This document shows, piece after piece, positions 1 through 55,678 of a DNA stretch of 64,000 nucleotides. A model generated the notes under the pieces. It saw nothing but the letters and a program-made list of their open reading frames with translations. It did no database searches and was not told the DNA's origin. A program made the translations under genes and the position numbers. Every line of letters begins with the position of its first letter. The stretch's first letter is position 1. Source of the stretch: Thermodesulfovibrionales bacterium (GTDB taxonomy: Bacteria; Nitrospirota; Thermodesulfovibrionia; Thermodesulfovibrionales; UBA6898); the NCBI GenBank assembly GCA_044450345.1, contig JBIOIY010000004.1:32001-96000 (forward strand), given 5' to 3'.

Positions 1-80
1 ATTTCACCTGGGACAGGATCGCCGAACAATATGAAGATTTCCTCCTGAAGGCAGTGCAGCGGCAAGGCCGTTTTCTGTGA
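1..80 (+). CDS. 3' end of a probable GT4 glycosyltransferase (partial)
   Basis: Frame from nt 3 reads FTWDRIAEQYEDFLLKAVQRQGRFL*, the typical GT-B C-terminal F(S/T)W..IA..Y helix; TGA at 78-80. Confidence 0.6.
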   Translation, partial: FTWDRIAEQYEDFLLKAVQRQGRFL

Positions 81-90
81 TGAGATGTCC

Positions 91-1296
91 TTATTCTGTG
101 TAGATTATCGCTTTGATCTTCTCCTCATCTCTCAACTTGGCAGCCAATTTCACTGATTCCTTCCTGTCTTCTGACTTTCCGATCAACACCCGGTAGAGAG
201 TCCCGTTGTCCTTACCGGTGCCTTTGCTCATGAAGGTATCGTATCCCTTGGCTTTAAATTGTTTAGCGAGCGCTGCGGCATTACTTTCACTTTTGAACAC
301 GCCGAGCTGGACGGAATAGGTCTTCTTCCCGGCTGTTTTCGAAGAGGACTTTTCCGGGGAGGCTGCGGGCGCCGGTACAGGCACCTGCTCCTTCTTTGCG
401 GCTGTTGAGGGTGCCGCCCTTTGGGCCGGGGCCGGAGGCGAAGGGACCGCCTTACTTTCAATGACGGGTTGCTGTTTCTGCTGTTCATTTGACGGGGTGG
501 GTGACTCGGCGGGGGATTGAGCAGGCGAAGGAGAAGGCGCAGGAGCGGGTGCTTCGGCCTTCGGCCTTGCTGCCGTACTCATGGGTTTCACGGAGACGGA
601 TTTTTTTGTTCCGGTGTAAAAGAGGAAACCTGCAATACCGGCTATCACGATGACCAGACCGGCAGCAACGACAGGGGAATTGCTTTTCTTTTTCCTGCGA
701 GGCGTTCCCTCTTTAGGAGAGGCATCGTAAGAAAAGTCAGGAGCGATCTCCCGAGTCGGCCCGCCAGTACTTTCCCGCTCTTCATCGAACTCAGGTATCC
801 CGGACATTTCAGGGGCCTCAAGCCGGGCGCCTTTGCCCTGCTGTGTGGCAGGAGCATTTAAAAAATCAGGCGTGCCACTCTCTTCTTTTTTGGGCACCCG
901 CTCTTTTTCCTTGACGTGCAGCACGATGGGGGCCTTTGTAGAGAGGACCTTCACTGTTTTTTCAAGTAGCTTACCCGGAGTGCAGGGGACATCCAGAAAA
1001 TCGGCGACCCCGAAAGAAGCAACGTCGCGCAAGTCAATGCCGCTGGAGGGAGAGGTCAGCAAGATGATAGGGACCTTTTGCAGCGACTCGAACTCGTGGA
1101 TCGTTTTGCAGATTTCAAGCCCTGTTTCATCAGGATTTATGAATATGAGCGAGGGGCTGACTTTCTGCGCCATTTCCGTGCCGACGTCGCCGCCGGGGAC
1201 TGCAAAAACAAGATATCCTTCCGATTCAAGAGTCGACGCGATGAGCTGCTCTGTTTCGCTGTCTGCGTCGATTACAAGGATTGTTTTGCTTGCCAT
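91..1296 (-). CDS. Pseudo-receiver domain - TM helix - Pro/Ala linker - SPOR domain protein
   Basis: N-terminal REC fold (KTILVIDAD...LESEGYLV...VPIILLT) with the phospho-Asp position reading N (LIFIN); TM VVAAGLVIVIAGIAGFLFY; C-terminal YSVQLGVF...LYRVLIG SPOR motif. Confidence 0.85.
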   Translation of the reverse strand: MASKTILVIDADSETEQLIASTLESEGYLVFAVPGGDVGTEMAQKVSPSLIFINPDETGLEICKTIHEFESLQKVPIILLTSPSSGIDLRDVASFGVADFLDVPCTPGKLLEKTVKVLSTKAPIVLHVKEKERVPKKEESGTPDFLNAPATQQGKGARLEAPEMSGIPEFDEERESTGGPTREIAPDFSYDASPKEGTPRRKKKSNSPVVAAGLVIVIAGIAGFLFYTGTKKSVSVKPMSTAARPKAEAPAPAPSPSPAQSPAESPTPSNEQQKQQPVIESKAVPSPPAPAQRAAPSTAAKKEQVPVPAPAASPEKSSSKTAGKKTYSVQLGVFKSESNAAALAKQFKAKGYDTFMSKGTGKDNGTLYRVLIGKSEDRKESVKLAAKLRDEEKIKAIIYTE

Positions 1297-1337
1297 GGTA
1301 AATCCCCCTTCAACTGGTTATCGGTATTCAGAGGGCC

Positions 1338-2366
1338 TCAAAGAGGTTCCCAATACTTGGAAGGCATATCTTGCGCGAGTTTGAGCGCGCCGTTTGATCC
1401 GGCAAACAGGGGCTCTTCGACGCATGATACCCTGCAGGGGCCGTATTCTTTCAGGGCGTCCTGGAGATATTCGCGGAGACCCCTTATAAGGCTGCCGCCG
1501 CCCGCCAGGACGATGTTGTTCTTTATCCTGACCTGGAATTCAGGATCGAACCGCGCGATCATCTCGGTCGTGGTCTCGGTGAGCGCCGGGAGAATGCTTT
1601 CGCAGGCCCTTTTGATCTCGTTCTTGATATCGTGCATGACCGGCTTGCCGTCGACGGGTATCTCCACCAGGACCTCTTCGGCCGTGTTTCCTACAAAACT
1701 GTATTTTTCTTTGAACAGACGCACCATGTTCTTGTTGAACTTCGAGTTCGGATACTTCTCGCTCAGATAACTGAAGAGCTGGTCGTCGATGTAATCCCCT
1801 GCGTTCAGTATGGTCTTCTGGTCTTCCTCGGCAGGGATCGCCCCGTGCATGATGCAGAAATCCGTTGTGCCGGCCCCTATATCGATTACGAGCGAGTTGT
1901 TCAAAAGGTTCATACCGTATGCGACCGCAAAGGGTTCGGTCACGACCATCAGGGCGTGGACGAATTCGGTCACGGCCTTTCTGATGGCGAGCTTGTTCAC
2001 CTTCAGGGTGTCGGCGGGCACGCCTACCACGGCGTGGATCTTCTGTTCCGGGTCAGGGCCTGCGAGCTCGATGAGGTGTTTTATGATCTCTTTCACGGCC
2101 TCTTCATTTTTGTCGATACCCTCCTTTATCACGCCGTGCTCAAGAGGCCTGCAGACGTCGAGGGAAAGCCTGTTCTGCAGGGCCTCGGCGCCGAACAGCA
2201 CCGGCTTGCCGACCACCTGCATCGAGATAAAGTCCTTGGGCCATCCCACGAAACTCTCGATCCACTCCCTCTTGCTGTTGCTTGCGGAGATGGCGCTCCT
2301 CGATGTACCGAGGTCGATCCCGACGAACAGGATATTATCTTTTTTCTGCGGATCCGTTTGCCTCAT
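1338..2366 (-). CDS. mamK-like: MamK-like actin family ATPase
   Basis: Actin motifs GIDLGTS, DIGAGTTD, LAGGGS; MamK-type features VGWPKD, AVVGVPA, VVTEPFAVAYG, PAEEDQ, KEKYSFVG and a C-terminal LAQDMPSKYW; AAGGAG SD upstream. Confidence 0.85.
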   Translation of the reverse strand: MRQTDPQKKDNILFVGIDLGTSRSAISASNSKREWIESFVGWPKDFISMQVVGKPVLFGAEALQNRLSLDVCRPLEHGVIKEGIDKNEEAVKEIIKHLIELAGPDPEQKIHAVVGVPADTLKVNKLAIRKAVTEFVHALMVVTEPFAVAYGMNLLNNSLVIDIGAGTTDFCIMHGAIPAEEDQKTILNAGDYIDDQLFSYLSEKYPNSKFNKNMVRLFKEKYSFVGNTAEEVLVEIPVDGKPVMHDIKNEIKRACESILPALTETTTEMIARFDPEFQVRIKNNIVLAGGGSLIRGLREYLQDALKEYGPCRVSCVEEPLFAGSNGALKLAQDMPSKYWEPL

Positions 2367-3384
2367 AACTCAGTTCTCCTTTATTTAGGTAATCCAGTAT
2401 CCCGGCCTCAAGATAATGGGCGATGTTCTCTCTGTGCCCCGGGGTGTTGAGCAGCTGTTCCTCCTCCTTGTTGCTGAGACAGGAGACCTCCGCCAGCACT
2501 GCCGGGATGTCCACCCCGAGCAGGACAACGAAGGGCGCCCTCTTGACCCCGAAATCATACGCGTTTCCGTTGTCTTTCTTGAAGTTCAGGAAAAGCTTTT
2601 TCTGTATCGAATATGCGAGGCCTCTGGACTCCTGCGTCTTCAGCCTCTCGCCCAGTTTCTCGATGATCTCCTTGAAATCGCTCAGGCCGTACTGGGAACC
2701 GGCGTTCTCCTGCTCCGCAAGACGCTGGGTGCCGGTGTCGGAAGAGGGGCCGAAGTAATAGGTCTCGATTATGTTGATCGGCTTGTGAGGAAGATAATTA
2801 AGATGGATGGATATGAAGAGGTCCGTCTTCTTCGACATTGCGAGATCGACCCTCTTGTTGAGGGGCATGGTGACGTCCTGGTCGCGGGTCATCAGCACAT
2901 TAAAACGGCCGTACTTGTCGAGGCGGTCTTTCAGCCTTTTTGCGATATCCAGGGTGATGTCCTTCTCCAGCGTGCCCATTATTCCCTTTGTGCCGGAGTC
3001 TGCGCCGCCGTGTCCTGCGTCTATCATGATCGTTTTTACCCCTAAGCCGAAGGTGCGGCTGACGGACATATCGGGGTTGGTGATAAAGGCCCTGTAATCG
3101 GCCGCGTTTGCCTTGGGGCTCTGAGGAGGGGCCATGTGCTTTATCTCGCCTGCGGTCAACTGCCTCTCCGAAAGGAAGGAGTTGGAGACATAAGACCCGT
3201 GGACGAGGATCGCGACCGTCGAAATGAGCAGGGTCAGAAAAAACTTATTGAGAACAAAATGTTTTGAACGGGATACGGCCCAGTCGCCTTTGCCGATGAT
3301 CCTCAGGTTCTCTTCATAAACCCCCCTCAGCATCTCCTGCTTTATCCTGAGGTCGGTCCTTTTCCGCGAAAAAATAGAGATCAT
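2335..3384 (-). CDS. N-acetylmuramoyl-L-alanine amidase (Amidase_3) with N-terminal TM
   Basis: IMIDAGHGG, EKDITLDIA, MTRDQD, LFISIHLN, PAVLAEV zinc-amidase motifs. Confidence 0.92.
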   Translation of the reverse strand: MISIFSRKRTDLRIKQEMLRGVYEENLRIIGKGDWAVSRSKHFVLNKFFLTLLISTVAILVHGSYVSNSFLSERQLTAGEIKHMAPPQSPKANAADYRAFITNPDMSVSRTFGLGVKTIMIDAGHGGADSGTKGIMGTLEKDITLDIAKRLKDRLDKYGRFNVLMTRDQDVTMPLNKRVDLAMSKKTDLFISIHLNYLPHKPINIIETYYFGPSSDTGTQRLAEQENAGSQYGLSDFKEIIEKLGERLKTQESRGLAYSIQKKLFLNFKKDNGNAYDFGVKRAPFVVLLGVDIPAVLAEVSCLSNKEEEQLLNTPGHRENIAHYLEAGILDYLNKGELSYEANGSAEKR

Positions 3385-3427
3385 AACGTTAGCATCACTT
3401 TACCAATTTGCGGGAAAAAATTCAATG
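3374..3427. repeat. 54-bp direct repeat, copy 1 (amidase start and upstream region)
   Basis: 51/54 identical to 7502-7555. Confidence 0.9.
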
Positions 3428-3651
3428 GAATACCTTTGCGGTAAAAGGTTTTTCGGCCCGATCAGGGCTTTCTGATCATCATCGAAAAGTAAGAAATATT
3501 CTCGACAAACGGGCGTGACACTTATGACACTTTATTGGCGGGGCCTCTTTTTGCCCGCCAGCGGGTTTAGAAGCTGCGCGTCCCTTGTAGAATTCGTCGC
3601 CCTTCAGTGTCCGCAGGGTAAGAGGAATCAGCAGGCGAGTTTCATCACTGC

Positions 3652-4671
3652 CTACCCGTGCAGAAACTTGCTGATTTTTGCGGTAAAGAATTCCCTGCTG
3701 CAGATAGAGGTTATCAAACTATAGAGGTCTCCATTGCTCACTTTCCTAATGCGCATTACGGCCTTTCTCTTCTTCAACATCTTCGGCAGCAGCCTGAGTG
3801 CATCGAGTTTCGCCCTAACGTAGAGCTTTAGTCTCCCGTGCCTGACGACGAAAAAAAGAAATTCCAGGAGCGTCCCGAGAATATAGGCCGGAAGGCAGCG
3901 GATGAAGACCCACGAAGGGATGTTCTTCATTCTGGTCAGTTCACTGTTTCTCAATGAATAAAACACCGCGGTATCACTCATGTTTCCGATCGTGGAGCGG
4001 ACTTTGTGATGAACAACGGCTGAAGGGACGTACTTCACCTTCCAGCCGGCCAACTGCGCCCTCAAATTGAAATCGGCGTCTTCGTAAATCAAGAAAAAAT
4101 CCTCGTCCAGAAACCCGATCTCCTCGATCATTTTCCTCCTGTACATGGCAGCACCTGCACATGCACCGAATACATATTCGTTTTCATTATACAAGTGAGC
4201 AGGCTTGCCTTCGCCGCGCTTGAATCCTTTCAAATTAGACGAGAAGCCGTCTCCTGCGCTGTCAATCAAATCCGTGCCCGCAACGAGCATCTTCGTCGCG
4301 CAGATACCGACCGAGGTGTCTTTTTCCATCGCCGAGACAAGACCTGCAAGGCAGTCCTTGTCCGCTTCTACGTCATTGTTGAGGAGCATTATGAAACTGC
4401 CCTTGGCGTGCTTGATGCCCTCGTTGTTGGCGCCTGGGAAGCCTATGTTTGAGGGCAGCGCAACCACCTCGACTGCCGGGAAGTTTTCTCTAATATATTC
4501 TACTGAACCGTCAGCAGAGCCGTTGTCCACTGCAATTACCTCGATATCCTGAAGGGACTGGGCAAAGACGGACTCAAGGCAAAGCCGCAATAATTCCCGG
4601 CCGTTATAGTTGACGATGATTATCGAGATAAGCGGAAAACCCGTATATTTTTCTTTCTGAATAAATTTCAT
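3652..4671 (-). CDS. GT2 family glycosyltransferase
   Basis: ISIIIVNYNG, VDNGSADGS, LLNND, GFLDEDFFLIYEDAD; ATG at 4671 chosen to avoid overlap with the upstream gene. Confidence 0.9.
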   Translation of the reverse strand: MKFIQKEKYTGFPLISIIIVNYNGRELLRLCLESVFAQSLQDIEVIAVDNGSADGSVEYIRENFPAVEVVALPSNIGFPGANNEGIKHAKGSFIMLLNNDVEADKDCLAGLVSAMEKDTSVGICATKMLVAGTDLIDSAGDGFSSNLKGFKRGEGKPAHLYNENEYVFGACAGAAMYRRKMIEEIGFLDEDFFLIYEDADFNLRAQLAGWKVKYVPSAVVHHKVRSTIGNMSDTAVFYSLRNSELTRMKNIPSWVFIRCLPAYILGTLLEFLFFVVRHGRLKLYVRAKLDALRLLPKMLKKRKAVMRIRKVSNGDLYSLITSICSREFFTAKISKFLHG

Positions 4672-41118: not shown

Positions 41119-42516
41119 CTATTCCCCGAAAGTCGCTACCCTGTTTCTGCCCAGGTTTTTTGCATTAAAGAGCGCCTGGTCGGCGCAAGAGATGAGATCA
41201 TCGTGGGTCCCGATCCGGTCGTTGGGAGTTACCGATATGCCGATGCTGACGGTAAGCCCCTCAGTGCTTTTGAGGCTTCTGAACCTATAATTCTCGACTA
41301 TTTCCCTGATCCTCTCAGCCTCTGACAGAGCGCCTTCCAGGGTCGTCTGGGGGAGGAGCAGGATGAACTCCTCTCCGCCGTAGCGGGCCAGCACGTCGCT
41401 CTTGCGCGAATGTTTATTCAGGAGCTGCGCGAATTCCTTGAGGACCGTGTCGCCTGTCCTATGGCCGTACCTGTCGTTGACCTTTTTGAAGTGGTCTATG
41501 TCGAGCATTAGGCAGCTTATGGGTAGCGCATACCTCTGTGAACGACTGAATTCCTCCATGATGCGGTGGTAGAAATATCTGATATTGTAGATGCCCGTCA
41601 GAAAATCCGTCAGGGATAATTTTTCGAGCCTGGATTTTTCGTCCTCGATCTGCTCGTAGAGAAAGGCGTTGTTGAGCGCGTTTGCGGATGTGTTCGCTAT
41701 GGTGTTGAGGAGCCTGATCTCGCTTTTGCTGAAGGCGTGTTCGGCCCTCGATGTCCTGAGGAAGAGCGTCCCTATCACCTTGTCCCTGAAAAATATCGGG
41801 ATGACGAGGATCGAGCGGATGCCGAGCGGCAAGAGGATATGCTTCACGCTTTTCATCAGCGGGTCGGTCCCTATATTTTTTACTATCACAGGCTTTTTTG
41901 ACGTGAGGGACTCGACGATCTCCGGGTATTTTCTGAGGACCAGCTTTATCCCCGACACCTGAGAGTCCTCGAAGCTTGCGACGACGAACGCAGTACGACG
42001 GCTCCAGTCGGCCCTGATTACGGAGCACCGGGTCACCGGCATAATCTCGGCGATCTTAGAGACGATCCTGAACAGGAGTTCTTTCGGATCGAGGGTGGAA
42101 GAGAGGAGTCGGGTGAGGGTCACGACCGTCTCGAGTTCCTTGACCTCCCCGCCGAGGGTCTCGATCATATACCTGTCCGCTATGACCGATTCAAGTTTGT
42201 AGTGAAGGTCTTTTTCGATATACGGCCTGTAGAGGTAACTCCTTACGTTGTGGGCTATAATGTTCTCGATGCCCTTCTTAATATCGCCGGCGACGATCAC
42301 GACGGATGGAAACTTCTTCGTCTTGGCAGCGACCGAATTAAGGAGGGACCCCTCGACTATGAGCACTGCCGGAGGGCTCTTGAGGACGTGGTCCAGAAAG
42401 GCGTCAGGTTCTTCGAAATAACCCGGCCTGTATGTCCTGTATTTCCCGAAATAAGCCTTCAGGAAAGTAAGGACGGCGTTGCTGCGTGCGAGTATCACGG
42501 TCTCTTTGCGTTTCAC
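41119..42516 (-). CDS. GAF-GGDEF diguanylate cyclase with degenerate N-terminal receiver-like domain
   Basis: TDFLTGIYN, DIDHFKKVND, RKSD I-site, RYGGEEF. Confidence 0.92.
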   Translation of the reverse strand: MKRKETVILARSNAVLTFLKAYFGKYRTYRPGYFEEPDAFLDHVLKSPPAVLIVEGSLLNSVAAKTKKFPSVVIVAGDIKKGIENIIAHNVRSYLYRPYIEKDLHYKLESVIADRYMIETLGGEVKELETVVTLTRLLSSTLDPKELLFRIVSKIAEIMPVTRCSVIRADWSRRTAFVVASFEDSQVSGIKLVLRKYPEIVESLTSKKPVIVKNIGTDPLMKSVKHILLPLGIRSILVIPIFFRDKVIGTLFLRTSRAEHAFSKSEIRLLNTIANTSANALNNAFLYEQIEDEKSRLEKLSLTDFLTGIYNIRYFYHRIMEEFSRSQRYALPISCLMLDIDHFKKVNDRYGHRTGDTVLKEFAQLLNKHSRKSDVLARYGGEEFILLLPQTTLEGALSEAERIREIVENYRFRSLKSTEGLTVSIGISVTPNDRIGTHDDLISCADQALFNAKNLGRNRVATFGE

Positions 42517-47141: not shown

Positions 47142-49556
47142 ATGTCAGATGCAGAGCGACTGAAGGCAGCGCTTGAAGAATGTGCCCACCTGAAAGAGGA
47201 AAACAAGAGGCTCAAATCACTCCTGGGCATCTTGGAAGAAAAGCCTGAAAGTCCCTCGCCTCCTCAGCCTATAGTTGGAACTTTGTCCCTCGACGACAAG
47301 GTCGCTCTTTTTCGAAATCTCTTCCATGGTCGCGACGATATTTACCCTGTAAGGTGGGAAGGGAAGGACGGAAGATCGGGCTATTCGCCTGCCTGTGCAA
47401 ACGAATGGAAACGGCCTCTATGCGTGAAACCGAAGATCAGATGCTCGGAGTGCGAGCATCGCGAGTTCCGCACTGTAACAAACGAATTAATCCAGAACCA
47501 TCTTTTAGGCAAACAGACCATCGGCGTTTATGCTCTTCTTCCGGATGAAACTTGCTATTTCTTAGCCACAGATTTCGATAAGGAGACGTGGAAAGAGGAT
47601 GCCTCGTCGTTTCTAAAAACTTGTCGTGACTTAAGCGTTCCCGCAGTCCTTGAGCGTTCGCGTTCGGGCAATGGGGGACATATCTGGATATTTTTCAATA
47701 TTCCAATTCAGGCGACATTAGCCCGAAAATTCGGTTCTGCAATGCTCACGTATACGATGGAAAGGAATCCTCAATTGGGCCTGGATTCCTATGATCGTTT
47801 TTTCCCGAGCCAGGATACCATGCCAAAAGGAGGATTCGGCAGCCTTATTGCTTTTCCGCTTCAGCGTGGGCCAAGAAACAAAGGCAACTCTGTTTTTCTC
47901 AATGAAGAATTTAATCCTTATCCTGACCAATGGACTTTTCTTTCCGGCGTCAAAAAAATGCACAAAGAAGAAGTCGAAGAAATTGTGCACACAGCTCAGC
48001 GCAAAGGAAAAATTCTCGGCATTAGAATGAGTCTGACTGAAGAAGGCGACGAAGATCCGTGGACTCTGCCCCCCTCCGGTAGAAAGATAGAAAAGACAGT
48101 TGAGGGCCCCTTCCCTGAGAAAGTCGCTATTATTTTGGGAAACATGGTCTATATTGAAAAGAAGGACTTGCCTCCAGCACTGGTCAACAGAATTATTCGA
48201 CTTTCGGCCTTTCAGAACCCGGAGTTTTATAAGGCACAGGCAATGCGACTGTCCACTTATGAGAAGCCCAGGATAATCTCGTGTGCGGAAGATTTTGGGA
48301 AACATTTGGGTCTTCCCCGAGGCTCCTTGGATGAAGTAATTGAACTGTTAGAGGTTCATGGCATCAAGGCAAATATTAGGGATGAGCGGTTTTCGGGAAT
48401 ACCGATAGATGCTGTCTTCAAAGGTGCCCTTCGTCCTCTTCAAAATGAGCCAACCGCTGAGATATTGAAGCATGACATTGGCGTACTAAGTGCACCTACT
48501 GCGTTTGGCAAGACCGCTATCGCCGCTTATCTAATTGCGGAGCGCAAAGTAAATACGCTGGTATTGGTTCATAGGAGGCTTCTTATGGATCAGTGGCACG
48601 TGCGACTGAAAAGCTTTCTAAATACACCATCTATTGGTCGCATAGGAGGAGGTCGCGGCGATAAGACCGGAAAAATCGACATAGGTATGATTCAAAGCCT
48701 GAATCGCAAGGGCATAGTTAAAGATATCGTAGCGGAGTACGGCCAGGTCATAATTGACGAGTGTCACCATGTTTCGGCCTTCAGTTTTGAGCAGGTTCTG
48801 AGGCAGATGAGGGCCAAATATGTCGTAGGACTTACGGCTACACCGATCAGAAAGGATGGGCATCATCCTATTATCGTTATGCAATGCGGCCCGATTCGTT
48901 TTCGGGTGGATGCCAGAAAACAATCCCGAGAAAGGCCGTTTGAGCATGTGGTAGTCCCAAGGCATACAGCATTCAGGACGCGAAGCACCGATGAGAGTAT
49001 TCAGTCGATGTATGCGGCCATGATCCACGATCAAGAACGCAATGACCTTATATTTAACGATCTCCTCAGCGCTCTTGAAGAGGGTTGTTCTCCGCTGCTG
49101 CTTACCGAGCGTACGGAACATGTGGATGAGTTTGCGGAACGGCTGAAGGGCTTTGCCAAAAACGTGATTGTACTCAAAGGTGGAATGGGGAAAAAGCAAC
49201 GAGCCGCATTAACTGCACAGATTGCTTCTATCCCCGACGGAGAAGAGAGGCTACTTATCGCGACTGGCAAATATATAGGCGAGGGTTTTGATGATGCCCG
49301 GTTGGACGCGCTCTTCTTGGCAATGCCGATTTCGTGGCGTGGAACTCTTCAACAATACGCAGGTCGCCTCCATCGCTTACATGATAACAAAAGAATCGTC
49401 AGAGTTTACGATTATGTCGATGTCCATATCCCGATGCTGATGCGCATGTATCAGAAGCGGCTTAATGGCTATAAGGCAATCGGATACTCGGTTCAGCCTA
49501 ATAACGCCGAAACCGGTGACAGCGTCCCAATTACTTCAATAGATACAGTCCTTTAG
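47142..49556 (+). CDS. AEP primase-like (TOTE-type) domain fused to an SF2 DEAD/DEAH-type helicase
   Basis: GYSPAC.NEW..C..C..C, ATDFD, ERSRSGNGGHIW; APTAFGKT, IIDECHH, GLTATP, GEGFD, QYAGRLHR. Confidence 0.85.
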   Translation: MSDAERLKAALEECAHLKEENKRLKSLLGILEEKPESPSPPQPIVGTLSLDDKVALFRNLFHGRDDIYPVRWEGKDGRSGYSPACANEWKRPLCVKPKIRCSECEHREFRTVTNELIQNHLLGKQTIGVYALLPDETCYFLATDFDKETWKEDASSFLKTCRDLSVPAVLERSRSGNGGHIWIFFNIPIQATLARKFGSAMLTYTMERNPQLGLDSYDRFFPSQDTMPKGGFGSLIAFPLQRGPRNKGNSVFLNEEFNPYPDQWTFLSGVKKMHKEEVEEIVHTAQRKGKILGIRMSLTEEGDEDPWTLPPSGRKIEKTVEGPFPEKVAIILGNMVYIEKKDLPPALVNRIIRLSAFQNPEFYKAQAMRLSTYEKPRIISCAEDFGKHLGLPRGSLDEVIELLEVHGIKANIRDERFSGIPIDAVFKGALRPLQNEPTAEILKHDIGVLSAPTAFGKTAIAAYLIAERKVNTLVLVHRRLLMDQWHVRLKSFLNTPSIGRIGGGRGDKTGKIDIGMIQSLNRKGIVKDIVAEYGQVIIDECHHVSAFSFEQVLRQMRAKYVVGLTATPIRKDGHHPIIVMQCGPIRFRVDARKQSRERPFEHVVVPRHTAFRTRSTDESIQSMYAAMIHDQERNDLIFNDLLSALEEGCSPLLLTERTEHVDEFAERLKGFAKNVIVLKGGMGKKQRAALTAQIASIPDGEERLLIATGKYIGEGFDDARLDALFLAMPISWRGTLQQYAGRLHRLHDNKRIVRVYDYVDVHIPMLMRMYQKRLNGYKAIGYSVQPNNAETGDSVPITSIDTVL

Positions 49557-54403: not shown

Positions 54404-55678
54404 TCATCTCACTTCCGTTCCACATAACTCCTTGCTCACCATAAAAAATAGGATCACGCCTGATTCTTCACGTGCGGTCGCCACGTTCTTTCTCTCTATC
54501 CCGGCATCCTCCAGTATTTTCCAGCAGTCGCTCTCCTGCCTTTGGTAGAAAGCATCCCAGTCCGAGACCCAGTGATAGTCGAACGTCGAGTATCTCTTGC
54601 AGTCCTTGAATGAGATTATCATAGTGCCGCCGGGATTAAGCAATTGGTAAAGCGCCCTGAACATCCTGACAAGGACAGCGCTCTCCAGGTAATCGTAGAG
54701 CCCGGTGCTGTAAATAATATCCTGCATGCCGAACTCTTTGAGGCTCCTTTCATGGCTTATCATCTTCAGGGCATTATACCTTCTGAAGGTAAAACGGTCC
54801 ATGGATATCCCCGTTGTAGACAGCCTGGAGGCAGAGAATGCAAGGGCATCACCGTCGAGGTCGACGCACGTGACATGGGAATTGTTGGCTTCTATGTCAG
54901 AGGAGATTTCAACGAGCTCCCTGCAGGAGCCACATGCTATGTCCAGTACTTTTGTTTTTTCATGTTTTCGCAGTTCTTTGAGGAGAAGGTCTTTCAAGGC
55001 CTCCTTTCTCCCCCTGACCGCCACTCCAAGCTCGGTGGAGAGGATGTATCTGTCTATGTAGAACCCTATGCCGGTCGATTGAGGCGTGTTCTTGTAGAAC
55101 GCTTCAAGCGTTTTGTAGTCGCCCGGATAGCCCTGGGGCCAGGTGAGTACGCGGCTCCAGAAATAGCTTTTGGCAGAGATCGGATTAGTCCTTCCCCTCA
55201 GTTTTTTCTGAGCTTCTTTTATCTGTTTTTTGTTGTCTCTGTTTTCTTCTTCGAAGAGTTCACAGGCCTTCTTCATATTCATGAAGGTTTGACGGGTCAG
55301 CTTCATGACCTCATCCTGATCGTGGCCAGGGATCAGACACTTTGCCTCGATGGTTTTCATCTCCGCAAGGAACCGGTCAATAGCGGCGGAAAGGGCTTCG
55401 GTCTCGATTGCCTCGAACATTAAGCCCACCCTGAGCATGGAGTCATTGATACGTTTCGTCCACTTTACTACACCGGCGTAGCTTCCTAAGCTGCTTTCCA
55501 TCGTAAGTGTGAGACCCGGCTCCAGCGGGAAATCGGTCTCGATACCTATCCCCGCCTCACTGAAATCATGAATTCTTCCCTTCACGCAAGTCCCTTTCTC
55601 AAGGTGACATTCCACGTCATCCGTAAAGGGTCTTCTGTAAAAACGTCTCATTTCTTCAACGTTAAATGGATCTCCCAT
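54404..55678 (-). CDS. PilZ domain fused to a SAM methyltransferase resembling PhcB-type signal synthases
   Basis: PilZ RxxxR (RRFYR) and DxSxxG (DFSEAG); PQGYPGDY, AVRGRK, VLDIACGSCRE, YSTGLYDYL. Confidence 0.8.
   Translation of the reverse strand: MGDPFNVEEMRRFYRRPFTDDVECHLEKGTCVKGRIHDFSEAGIGIETDFPLEPGLTLTMESSLGSYAGVVKWTKRINDSMLRVGLMFEAIETEALSAAIDRFLAEMKTIEAKCLIPGHDQDEVMKLTRQTFMNMKKACELFEEENRDNKKQIKEAQKKLRGRTNPISAKSYFWSRVLTWPQGYPGDYKTLEAFYKNTPQSTGIGFYIDRYILSTELGVAVRGRKEALKDLLLKELRKHEKTKVLDIACGSCRELVEISSDIEANNSHVTCVDLDGDALAFSASRLSTTGISMDRFTFRRYNALKMISHERSLKEFGMQDIIYSTGLYDYLESAVLVRMFRALYQLLNPGGTMIISFKDCKRYSTFDYHWVSDWDAFYQRQESDCWKILEDAGIERKNVATAREESGVILFFMVSKELCGTEVR

What the first reader, a model, noticed from the sequence alone, without database searches (positions are those of the whole stretch)
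91..3384. MamK-like actin in a peptidoglycan operon with no magnetosome genes
Seen: three co-oriented genes, amidase > actin ATPase > pseudo-REC/TM/SPOR protein; the first two overlap by 32 nt. The actin resembles MamK as I recall it (VGWPKD, EPFAVAYG, PAEEDQ, terminal P..YW) more than MreB, and there is no mreC/mreD or mam/mad/man gene in the window. Known: SPOR domains bind amidase-denuded glycan strands. Inference: a cytoskeleton/cell-wall module in which the amidase makes denuded glycan, the SPOR protein binds it, and its cytoplasmic receiver (phospho-Asp reads N, conserved Lys reads V) links to a MamK-type filament. This could be a non-magnetosome role for the MamK family.
Basis: partly seen in the sequence, partly recalled or inferred. 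Interest (0 to 1): 0.82.

Follow-up and report, generated by a model that had tools for sequence, protein, structure and literature searches.

The report
Actin filament gene paired with wall amidase
A relative of the magnetosome actin MamK sits, in a non-magnetic bacterium, in a small operon with a membrane-anchored cell-wall amidase and a wall-binding SPOR protein, and the amidase-actin pair recurs across many phyla, pointing to an undescribed internal scaffold that may direct where the wall is cut.

Summary
Three co-oriented minus-strand genes are present: an amidase (2335-3384), a MamK-family actin (1338-2366, 32-nt overlap) and a pseudo-receiver/TM/SPOR protein (91-1296). The genome is a Thermodesulfovibrionales (Nitrospirota) assembly in which I found no magnetosome genes.

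The actin passes NCBI's MamK model (418.7 bits, cut-off 400) and matches solved MamK far better than MreB. It belongs to a separate, well-supported clade (UFBoot 99), distinct from magnetosome-cluster MamK.

The invariant partner is the amidase, not the SPOR protein. The amidase lies directly upstream in 20 of 20 order-level loci. It also does so in 78 of 80 loci from at least six other phyla; the two exceptions have no upstream DNA. The amidase carries a conserved cytoplasmic tail motif. A complex prediction puts this motif in the actin's IA/IIA cleft (score 0.83, best control 0.00).

The REC/SPOR gene is a lineage-restricted add-on (15 of 20 and 27 of 80 loci), and orthologs also stand alone without the actin.

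The best reading is a cytoskeleton-guided peptidoglycan amidase module, working like bactofilin-LmdC or FtsA-FtsN-amidase. I found no paper describing it. This scan had flagged the same module earlier on other DNA. All evidence is computational.

The parts
2335..3384 (-). Bitopic N-acetylmuramoyl-L-alanine amidase, 349 aa (AmiA/B/C-like catalytic domain)
   Evidence: Amidase_3 5.6e-42. The nearest solved chains are AmiB 3ne8, AmiC 4bin and AmiA 8c2o, aligned over residues 115-336 including the segment LAEQEN against LAESEN. It lies directly upstream of the actin in 20 of 20 and 78 of 80 loci.
3247..3384 (-). Cytoplasmic N-terminal tail of the amidase (residues 1-46) with the conserved motif ILRGVYE(E/D)NLRIIGK
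   Evidence: The motif is present in all 21 aligned orthologs and in 58 of 77 upstream amidase frames across phyla. Residues 11-32 form the predicted interface with the actin.
3187..3258 (-). Predicted transmembrane helix of the amidase (about residues 43-66)
   Evidence: Hydropathy windows start at residue 42. The motif-to-TM spacing of about 24 residues is kept across loci.
2398..3030 (-). Periplasmic Amidase_3 catalytic domain (residues 119-329)
2335..2366 (-). 32-nt overlap of the amidase stop and the actin start, with a GGAG Shine-Dalgarno-like site at 2376-2379
   Evidence: In 65 of 77 related loci the amidase frame ends 1-110 nt inside the actin gene.
1338..2366 (-). MamK-family actin-like ATPase, 342 aa, member of an amidase-linked clade
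   Evidence: NF040964 418.7 bits against a cut-off of 400. MamK 5jyg 312 bits, BeeR 8r2n 155 bits, MreB 59 bits or less. The clade has UFBoot 99 / SH-aLRT 95. Phosphate-1, phosphate-2 and adenosine motifs are invariant in 19 orthologs.
91..1296 (-). Pseudo-receiver / linker / TM / Pro-Ala-Ser-rich linker / SPOR protein, 401 aa
   Evidence: Response_reg 1e-10 and SPOR 2.2e-14. TM at residues 205-231.
958..1281 (-). Cytoplasmic receiver-like domain (residues 6-113) without a phospho-acceptor Asp
   Evidence: Position 53 is N and position 103 is V against YycF. Across 16 orthologs the acceptor position is N in 10, S in 2, E in 2, K in 1 and D in 1.
604..684 (-). Transmembrane helix of the third protein
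100..327 (-). Periplasmic SPOR domain (residues 324-399)
   Evidence: PF05036 54 bits against a cut-off of 21.

Best explanation
The core is a two-gene module, extended here by a third gene.

Gene 1 encodes a bitopic peptidoglycan amidase. It has a 46-residue cytoplasmic tail, one transmembrane helix and a periplasmic AmiA/B/C-type catalytic domain. Gene 2 is translationally coupled to it and encodes a MamK-family actin of a clade that has nothing to do with magnetosomes.

I propose that the actin polymerises under the membrane and binds the conserved helix in the amidase tail, in the cleft between subdomains IA and IIA. The filament would then decide where, and possibly when, the periplasmic amidase strips peptides from glycan strands.

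Gene 3 is present in Nitrospirota. It encodes a bitopic protein whose periplasmic SPOR domain would bind the denuded glycan that the amidase makes. Its cytoplasmic pseudo-receiver may feed back on the filament or on another partner.

Shown by computation: the domain content, clade membership, strict synteny, motif conservation, and the absence of magnetosome-gene hits in this genome.

Predicted: the tail-actin contact.

Inferred: filament formation, positioning of amidase activity, SPOR binding of the product, and the cellular process served (septum splitting, shape or another local wall opening).
For: (1) Family. The MamK model scores over its cut-off and there is a whole-length match to solved MamK.

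(2) Separate clade. All amidase-linked actins form one clade, at 97 SH-aLRT in 127 rows and UFBoot 99 / SH-aLRT 95 in 68 rows. This clade is apart from Nitrospirota magnetosome-cluster MamK (100/100) and from the clade holding representatives closest to solved MamK.

(3) Synteny. The amidase abuts the actin upstream on the same strand in 20 of 20 loci of the order. It also does so in 78 of 80 loci from Nitrospirota, Thermodesulfobacteriota, Methylomirabilota/Rokubacteria, Aminicenantes, Gamma- and Alphaproteobacteria and Rhodothermota/Bacteroidota. In the other 2 the actin sits at the contig start.

(4) Tail motif. It is conserved in 21 of 21 orthologs and 58 of 77 frames (8 of the 19 misses are truncated by a contig end), always about 24 residues before the TM.

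(5) Complex prediction of actin with tail residues 1-46:
- The score was 0.83 and the best of 3 controls 0.00.
- The mark was reached by 116 of 157 solved complexes and 2 of 215 mismatched pairs.
- The runs agree in at least 91% of contacts.
- The partner pLDDT is at least 65.
- The interface is tail 11-32 against actin 122-129, 139-142, 150-156, 175-177 and 330-340.

(6) Interface positions 126, 129 and 139 are clade-specific. They read L/I/V/M, R/K and L/I in 56, 55 and 54 of 56 amidase-linked rows. In magnetosome-cluster MamK they read K/Q/R (18 of 18), L (17 of 18) and V (18 of 18).

(7) Five magnetosome-bearing relatives lack the tail-bearing amidase. Their best hits are 36-40% identical, over the catalytic domain only.

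(8) Precedent for the logic. Bactofilin BacA binds the N-terminal cytoplasmic tail of the bitopic M23 peptidase LmdC (PMC10945521, passages read).
Against: - Nothing is experimental, and no RNA data were found.
- The docking site is the cleft that actin-like proteins also use for contacts along the filament (my recollection of actin and ParM structures, not tested here). The tail might therefore bind only monomers or filament ends, or the model may favour 'helix in cleft' from memory of ParM-ParR or actin-WH2 complexes.
- My own alignments were used in the complex job, so its calibration holds only roughly.
- 11 full-length upstream amidases, mostly proteobacterial, lack a strict motif match.
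- The module is patchy: 41 of 201 genomes of the order by score class. It is therefore accessory, and its cellular role is open.
- The amidase keeps the segment that aligns with the regulatory helix of AmiB, so activation may need a LytM-type factor that the operon does not encode.
- REC/SPOR orthologs occur without the actin, so the third gene's tie to the filament is weak.
Confidence: 0.6

Rival explanations
1. The cytoplasmic pseudo-receiver of the SPOR protein is the link to the filament. The amidase only supplies denuded glycan for the SPOR domain to bind.
For: The three-gene order is kept in 15 of 20 and 27 of 80 loci. In one genome the downstream gene keeps a receiver but swaps SPOR for PilZ, which suggests the receiver is the part that matters next to the actin. 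All 5 genomes without an adjacent copy encode a REC...SPOR protein elsewhere.
Against: No REC/SPOR gene lies next to the actin outside Nitrospirota and a few 'delta' bins. REC/TM/SPOR-like proteins are found in 157 of 201 genomes of the order, against 41 with this actin. Close orthologs stand alone beside unrelated genes. The contact itself was not tested.
Confidence: 0.2
2. The direction is reversed. The amidase tail serves as a membrane anchor, nucleator or cap for the filament, and the filament's real cargo or task is something else, such as envelope or polysaccharide machinery.
For: The predicted site is the IA/IIA cleft. In ParM this cleft takes the ParR helix at filament ends (recalled). 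The window's operon lies inside a polysaccharide gene region.
Against: The flanking genes differ from locus to locus. Only the amidase is constant. A catalytically intact amidase domain is kept everywhere.
Confidence: 0.12
3. The genes are co-expressed but the proteins do not touch. The pairing reflects shared regulation only.
For: All binding evidence is a prediction.
Against: A gene pair kept adjacent in 78 of 78 informative loci across phyla, with a conserved cytoplasmic motif on a periplasmic enzyme and clade-specific residues at the predicted interface, is hard to explain by regulation alone.
Confidence: 0.06
4. A relic of a lost magnetosome cluster, or a ParM-like segregation actin of a mobile element.
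For: The protein belongs to the MamK family. Magnetotactic relatives exist in the same order and family. Thermodesulfobacteriota copies nest inside the Nitrospirota branch, which hints at transfer or mis-binning.
Against: The clade is distinct from magnetosome-cluster MamK. No MamM, MamP, MamQ or MamA orthologs were found in the genome. There is no adaptor or centromere-like partner. The pair is chromosomal in complete genomes.
Confidence: 0.02

Closest known systems
MamK, the magnetosome-positioning actin (NCBIfam NF040964; solved as 5jyg, 5ljv, 5ljw)
   Same: Same family by the curated model (418.7 bits against 400). It aligns over its whole length at 312 bits and keeps the nucleotide-binding motifs and the C-terminal P..YW.
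   Different: It forms a separate clade and is never next to mam genes. It is always next to an amidase. Surface positions 126, 129 and 139 are swapped. In the 201 genomes of the order, no genome has both types.
Bactofilin BacA with the bitopic M23 endopeptidase LmdC (Hyphomonas neptunium, Rhodospirillum rubrum; PMC10945521)
   Same: A cytoskeletal gene lies next to a gene for a bitopic peptidoglycan hydrolase in many species. In that system the hydrolase's short N-terminal cytoplasmic tail is the binding determinant (passages read). Here the same architecture and a predicted tail contact are seen.
   Different: The polymer here is a nucleotide-dependent actin rather than a bactofilin. The enzyme is an amidase rather than an M23 endopeptidase. 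The tail motif is a predicted helix rather than a beta-hairpin. Nothing has been tested at the bench.
FtsA-FtsN-AmiA/B/C septal loop of E. coli
   Same: It also combines an actin-fold protein under the membrane, a bitopic SPOR protein with a cytoplasmic N-terminus, and AmiA/B/C-type amidases that make the denuded glycan bound by SPOR. The SPOR role is taken from the abstract of 10.1101/2024.05.13.594014 in the listing; the rest is my knowledge.
   Different: The actin is not FtsA: TIGR01174 scores 22.8 bits here, and FtsA is present in 5 of 5 relatives. The SPOR protein is below the FtsN cut-off (32.6 against 107.65) and carries a receiver fold. The amidase itself is membrane-anchored and carries the candidate actin-binding element.
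Other non-magnetosome MamK relatives: BeeR (Verrucomicrobiota, PMC11929497) and saltatorellin (10.1101/817700)
   Same: These are MamK-like actins in non-magnetotactic bacteria whose cellular function is unknown (passages read).
   Different: BeeR-like representatives form the sister group of the whole MamK family in my trees, and the window's protein scores 232 against a cut-off of 530 on the BeeR model. No amidase partner is mentioned in the passages I read.

Membership tests
MamK family (NCBIfam NF040964) | Score over the curated cut-off; whole-length likeness to solved MamK | tested here: met
   418.7 bits against 400. 312 bits to 5jyg over residues 7-341.
MamK in the functional sense (magnetosome actin) | Encoded in or with a magnetosome gene cluster | tested here: not met
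   No mam genes in the window or its contig flank. tblastn with 49 ORFs of two magnetosome loci found only the actin itself and generic CDF, TPR and PDZ hits of 31% identity or less. The genome is 91% complete.
MamK in the functional sense (magnetosome actin) | Groups with magnetosome-cluster MamK in a tree | tested here: not met
   Separate clades at 99/95 and 100/100. The joint node has only 62/77 support.
MamK family | ATP-dependent filament formation | not testable with these tools
   Only the nucleotide-binding motifs and the residue aligned with MamK's EPF glutamate are seen to be conserved.
MreB | Score over the MreB model cut-offs; mreC/mreD neighbours | tested here: not met
   88.5 against 293 and 74.5 against 365.75. 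The genome's true MreB (489 bits on PF06723) sits with MreC on contig C16. MreB is the outgroup in the trees.
BeeR | Score over the NF053558 cut-off | tested here: not met
   232.4 against 530.
Amidase_3, AmiA/B/C type | Catalytic domain with metal-binding and catalytic residues in place | tested here: met
   PF01520 144 bits. The GHGG, EKD, SIH and E..S.LSN stretches align with AmiB, AmiC and AmiA and are invariant in 18 orthologs. Which residues bind zinc is recalled, not tested.
Amidase_3, AmiA/B/C type | Auto-inhibitory helix over the active site | tested here: inconclusive
   The segment LAEQEN aligns with LAESEN of 3ne8. No structure was modelled.
Amidase_3, AmiA/B/C type | Soluble periplasmic enzyme with a targeting domain (AMIN) | tested here: not met
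   It has an N-terminal tail and TM instead. The genome's AMIN-bearing amidase is a different gene on C1.
Response regulator receiver | Receiver fold | tested here: met
   PF00072 42.2 bits against 30.2.
Response regulator receiver | Phospho-acceptor Asp and conserved Lys | tested here: not met
   N and V in the window. The acceptor is Asp in only 1 of 16 orthologs. The Lys is kept in most orthologs but not here.
SPOR domain proteins | SPOR domain over the cut-off, placed outside the membrane | tested here: met
   54 bits against 21. It is C-terminal to the TM, with basic residues on the N-terminal side. Glycan binding was not tested.
FtsN | Score over the TIGR02223 cut-off | tested here: not met
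   32.6 against 107.65.
Cytoskeleton-hydrolase module of the BacA-LmdC kind (works-like, not homology) | Polymer gene next to a bitopic wall hydrolase across taxa; the hydrolase's cytoplasmic tail binds the polymer | tested here: inconclusive
   Adjacency and architecture are met. Binding is only predicted.

The most novel reading that the evidence does not exclude
This would be a widespread, undescribed actin cytoskeleton of bacteria whose cargo is a cell-wall amidase. The amidase tail sits in the barbed-end cleft, as ParR does on ParM, so treadmilling or growing filament ends would carry or release the enzyme and draw lines of denuded glycan that SPOR proteins then read. The magnetosome MamK of Nitrospirota and this wall-cutting actin would be alternative descendants of one ancestor, since no genome of the 201 sampled has both.
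Probability: 0.15. Interest if true: 0.9.

Novelty: new variant of a known kind. Interest (0 to 1): 0.72.

Why it matters
Bacterial actins with known jobs are few: MreB, FtsA, ParM-type and MamK. MamK is treated as a marker of magnetotactic bacteria. Here a large MamK-family clade is tied to a peptidoglycan amidase in at least seven phyla, and it comes with a concrete, mutable candidate interface.

If this holds, it adds a new way of placing or gating wall hydrolysis from inside the cell, next to bactofilin-LmdC and FtsEX-EnvC. It would also explain what 'orphan MamK' genes in non-magnetic genomes do, and it warns against using mamK alone as a marker for magnetotaxis.

A cultured carrier with a complete genome, Roseithermus sacchariphilus MEBiC09517 (locus L166), makes the idea testable.

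Tried and rejected
- **Magnetosome relic:** rejected.
- **MreB or FtsA substitute:** rejected. MreB and MreC are present. FtsA and FtsZ were not found in this assembly, but FtsA is present in 5 of 5 relatives, including the same genus. I therefore read the blank as an assembly gap.
- **The FtsA-model hit on contig C3:** it lies in a pilMNOPQ-like row by gene sizes only, so it is not FtsA.
- **Naming the 50%-cluster representatives:** I labelled representatives by NCBIfam scores and by likeness to solved MamK instead, so their organisms are unknown.
- **N-terminal extensions of long MamK-like proteins as possible fusions to amidase or receiver domains:** no Pfam domain was found in them.
- **A conserved third gene outside Nitrospirota:** none found.
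- **Promoter and terminator scan of 1-4000:** counts were at or below the shuffled expectation and gave nothing usable.
- **Expression:** no RNA holder was listed for the locus, and read laying was not used.
- **Literature (six searches):** these were for MamK with amidase or non-magnetotactic, MamK with Thermodesulfovibrio, actin-like with amidase, SPOR or tail, BeeR, and MamK-like or non-MTB. None gave a paper that links a MamK-like actin to an amidase. The two papers holding both words are unrelated by title and abstract. Subscription journals and supplements were not searched.
Full report
**What is there.** The window is G000:C4:32001-96000 of a 3.19-Mb, 86-contig assembly that is 91% complete. 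Named close relatives of the actin are Nitrospirota / Thermodesulfovibrionales bins.
- The amidase (2335-3384) matches Amidase_3 at 5.6e-42.
- The actin (1338-2366) scores 418.7 bits on NCBI's MamK model against a cut-off of 400. It scores 232 on BeeR and 74-92 on the MreB models.
- The third protein (91-1296) has a receiver domain (1e-10) and a SPOR domain (2.2e-14).
- The 32-nt overlap is real. A GGAG lies 10 nt before the actin ATG, inside the amidase gene, and a GGGGG precedes the third gene, 41 nt after the actin stop.
- Downstream a convergent GT4 gene closes the unit. Upstream, after 267 nt, come GT2, AlgX-like and MBOAT genes. The wider flanks are polysaccharide genes.

**The actin's family.**
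- Against solved structures the protein matches Magnetospirillum MamK (5jyg, 5ljv, 5ljw) at 312 bits over residues 7-341. BeeR (8r2n) scores 155 bits and MreB chains 59 or less.
- The genome's true MreB (489 bits on PF06723) lies with MreC on contig C16.
- The MamK model finds only the window's actin over its cut-off in the genome.
- tblastn with all 49 ORFs of two magnetosome loci found only that actin (43% identical) plus generic hits. These were to CDF transporters, TPR proteins and PDZ domains, at 31% identity or less. Nothing was found for the MamM ORF.
- So no magnetosome cluster was found in what is assembled.

**Two kinds of MamK in the order.** The MamK model was run on 201 genomes of the order.
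- 62 genomes score over the cut-off.
- 21 of them score 455-507 bits and 41 score 402-441 bits, the latter including this genome.
- Two more genomes have fragments.
- No genome has both kinds.

I fetched 18 loci from 17 of the 21 high scorers and 20 loci of the 40 other low scorers.
- High scorers are 42-45% identical to the window's actin. The one locus I scanned (L059) carries MamA, MamB, MamQ, MamM, MamP and a Mad28-like actin. The others share its pattern of gene sizes but were not scanned.
- Low scorers are 64-87% identical to the window's actin. All 20 have the amidase directly upstream, and 15 have the REC/SPOR gene directly downstream.
- Of the other five, one has a receiver-PilZ gene in that place and four have unrelated neighbours. 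All five encode a REC...SPOR protein elsewhere.

**Beyond the order.** A scan of one genome per species found at least 588 relatives, and the best 80 were kept. They come from:
- Nitrospirota;
- Thermodesulfobacteriota and 'delta' bins;
- Methylomirabilota/Rokubacteria;
- Aminicenantes;
- Gammaproteobacteria;
- Rhodospirillaceae;
- Rhodothermota/Bacteroidota, including the cultured Roseithermus sacchariphilus MEBiC09517.

The amidase lies directly upstream on the same strand in 78 of the 80. In the other two the actin starts within 75 nt of the contig end. REC/SPOR follows in 27 of 80, all among loci at least 73% identical to the window's actin. Elsewhere no third gene recurs.

**Trees.** Three trees were built.
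- A quick LG+G4 tree of 113 rows used 21 low scorers, 18 high scorers, 73 full-length 50%-cluster representatives and MreB. It separates the two kinds (99 and 100 SH-aLRT) inside a MamK family whose sister is BeeR-like.
- Phylum-wide loci were then added, giving 127 rows. All 45 rows labelled amidase-linked, plus one representative, form one clade (97). One of these rows, L142, has no upstream DNA and so is unverified.
- A careful tree of 68 rows gives UFBoot 99 / SH-aLRT 95 for that clade (28 verified rows plus P0121). Magnetosome-cluster MamK gets 100/100. The clade holding the representatives closest to solved MamK gets 99/94.
- The node joining the amidase-linked and Nitrospirota magnetosome clades has only 62/77 support, so their order of descent is open.
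- Rows left out were fragments and partial-length representatives. In one search about half the rows were dropped to keep the run short.

**The amidase.**
- Its nearest solved relatives are the division amidases AmiB (3ne8), AmiC (4bin) and AmiA (8c2o). The alignment covers the metal-binding and catalytic stretches and the segment that corresponds to their regulatory helix. The role of that helix is recalled, not tested.
- Unlike those enzymes it has no AMIN domain. It starts with 46 cytoplasmic residues and one TM helix.
- The genome has two other Amidase_3 genes, one of them AMIN-bearing, and three other SPOR proteins.
- The tail holds a motif, ILRGVYE(E/D)NLRIIGK, present in 21 of 21 orthologs. 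A nine-residue core of it is found in 58 of 77 upstream amidase frames across phyla. Eight of the 19 misses are cut by a contig end, and 11 full-length frames lack a strict match.
- In those 77 loci the amidase frame ends 1-110 nt inside the actin gene in 65. There is a gap of 12-86 nt in 8. The frame reads further in 4, which I did not examine.
- Five magnetosome-bearing relatives have only generic amidases, 36-40% identical over the catalytic domain, with no tail match.

- The model supports binding, with score 0.83 and best of 3 controls 0.00.
- The mark was reached by 116 of 157 solved complexes and 2 of 215 mismatched pairs.
- The three runs agree in at least 91% of contacts, and the partner pLDDT is at least 65.
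- Tail residues 11-32 touch actin residues 122-129, 139-142, 150-156, 175-177 and 330-340. By my reading of the actin fold this is the cleft between subdomains IA and IIA.
- Position 126 is L/I/V/M in 56 of 56 amidase-linked rows, but K/Q/R in 18 of 18 magnetosome-cluster rows.
- Position 129 is R/K in 55 of 56, but L in 17 of 18.
- Position 139 is L/I in 54 of 56, but V in 18 of 18.
- Caveats: the score is the model's own confidence, my own alignments were used, and helix-in-cleft complexes of other actin-fold proteins exist and may be remembered by the model. The same cleft serves contacts along actin-like filaments (recalled), so side binding to a polymer is not assured.

**The third gene.**
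- Aligned with YycF, the receiver has N at the phospho-acceptor position and V at the conserved Lys.
- Across 16 orthologs the acceptor position is N in 10, S in 2, E in 2, K in 1 and D in 1. The Lys-Pro pair is kept in most orthologs but not in the window's genus.
- The protein has one TM (residues 205-231) and a C-terminal SPOR domain.
- REC/TM/SPOR-like matches occur in 157 of 201 genomes of the order at E of 1e-9 or better. This includes families in which the amidase-linked actin was not found.
- Two close full-length orthologs stand beside unrelated genes with no actin or amidase nearby. One (34% identity by tblastn) is next to a radical-SAM gene. The other (29% identity by tblastn) is next to RibD and a class I aminoacyl-tRNA synthetase gene.
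- The SPOR protein is therefore an order-wide protein that often, but not necessarily, travels with the pair.

**Reading.** The constant unit is the tail-bearing amidase plus the actin. The simplest mechanism is that the filament recruits, clusters or gates the amidase through its tail. In Nitrospirota a SPOR protein would then read the denuded glycan.

This works like bactofilin BacA with LmdC, where the hydrolase's cytoplasmic tail binds the polymer (PMC10945521, passages read). It also resembles the FtsA-FtsN-amidase loop, but it is a member of neither.

Non-magnetosome MamK relatives are known only in passing or with unknown function:
- 10.1101/682252, passage citing Lefevre 2013;
- the Thiomargarita preprint;
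- BeeR;
- saltatorellin.

My six searches found no paper that pairs such an actin with an amidase.

**Earlier notes of this scan.** Notes on other genomes describe the same pair and reach the same reading. They are AI notes, not independent evidence. I repeated the key tests here on this window's own family.

Noticed in passing
Representatives P0125-P0148: A well-supported clade of 14 MamK-like proteins of 523-1232 aa carries the actin domain at the C-terminus. The N-terminal 190-900 residues have no Pfam match. Their organisms are unknown.
   Followed up: partly
Representative P0158 (768 aa): A single protein joins a full FtsZ (TIGR00065, 351 bits) to a MamK domain (446 bits). It groups with the representatives closest to solved MamK.
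   Followed up: no
L044:7242-7997 (genome G007): Downstream of the amidase-actin pair this genome has a receiver-PilZ gene where others have receiver/TM/SPOR. The same genome also encodes a REC...SPOR protein elsewhere.
   Followed up: partly
L173:3843-6011 (Rhodothermales chromosome OY760427.1): The amidase reading frame runs on through the actin gene as one 722-codon frame. A periplasmic enzyme fused to a cytoplasmic actin makes little topological sense, so I suspect an assembly indel. I did not check this.
   Followed up: no
L123, L124, L126, L127, L129, L133, L134, L136: Bins labelled Thermodesulfobacteriota, 'delta proteobacterium' or Syntrophaceae carry actins 77-79% identical to the window's and nest inside the Nitrospirota branch. 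This means either lateral transfer of the module or mislabelled bins.
   Followed up: no
G000 whole genome: Neither ftsA nor ftsZ (tblastn) was found in this 91%-complete assembly, although ftsA is present in 5 of 5 relatives. The division cluster is probably unassembled.
   Followed up: partly
L059:10811-12935 (genome G016): In the magnetosome cluster a 296-aa response regulator and a 415-aa Mad28-like actin lie just upstream of mamK.
   Followed up: no
window 47142-49556 (+): An 804-aa protein has a TOTE conflict-system archaeo-eukaryotic primase domain (2.7e-99) followed by a ResIII/DEAD helicase. It is a defence-type gene unrelated to the finding.
   Followed up: no
window 54404-55678 (-) and 41119-42516 (-): A PilZ-methyltransferase fusion and a GAF-GGDEF cyclase lie in the same window. 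This is c-di-GMP signalling near envelope genes.
   Followed up: no
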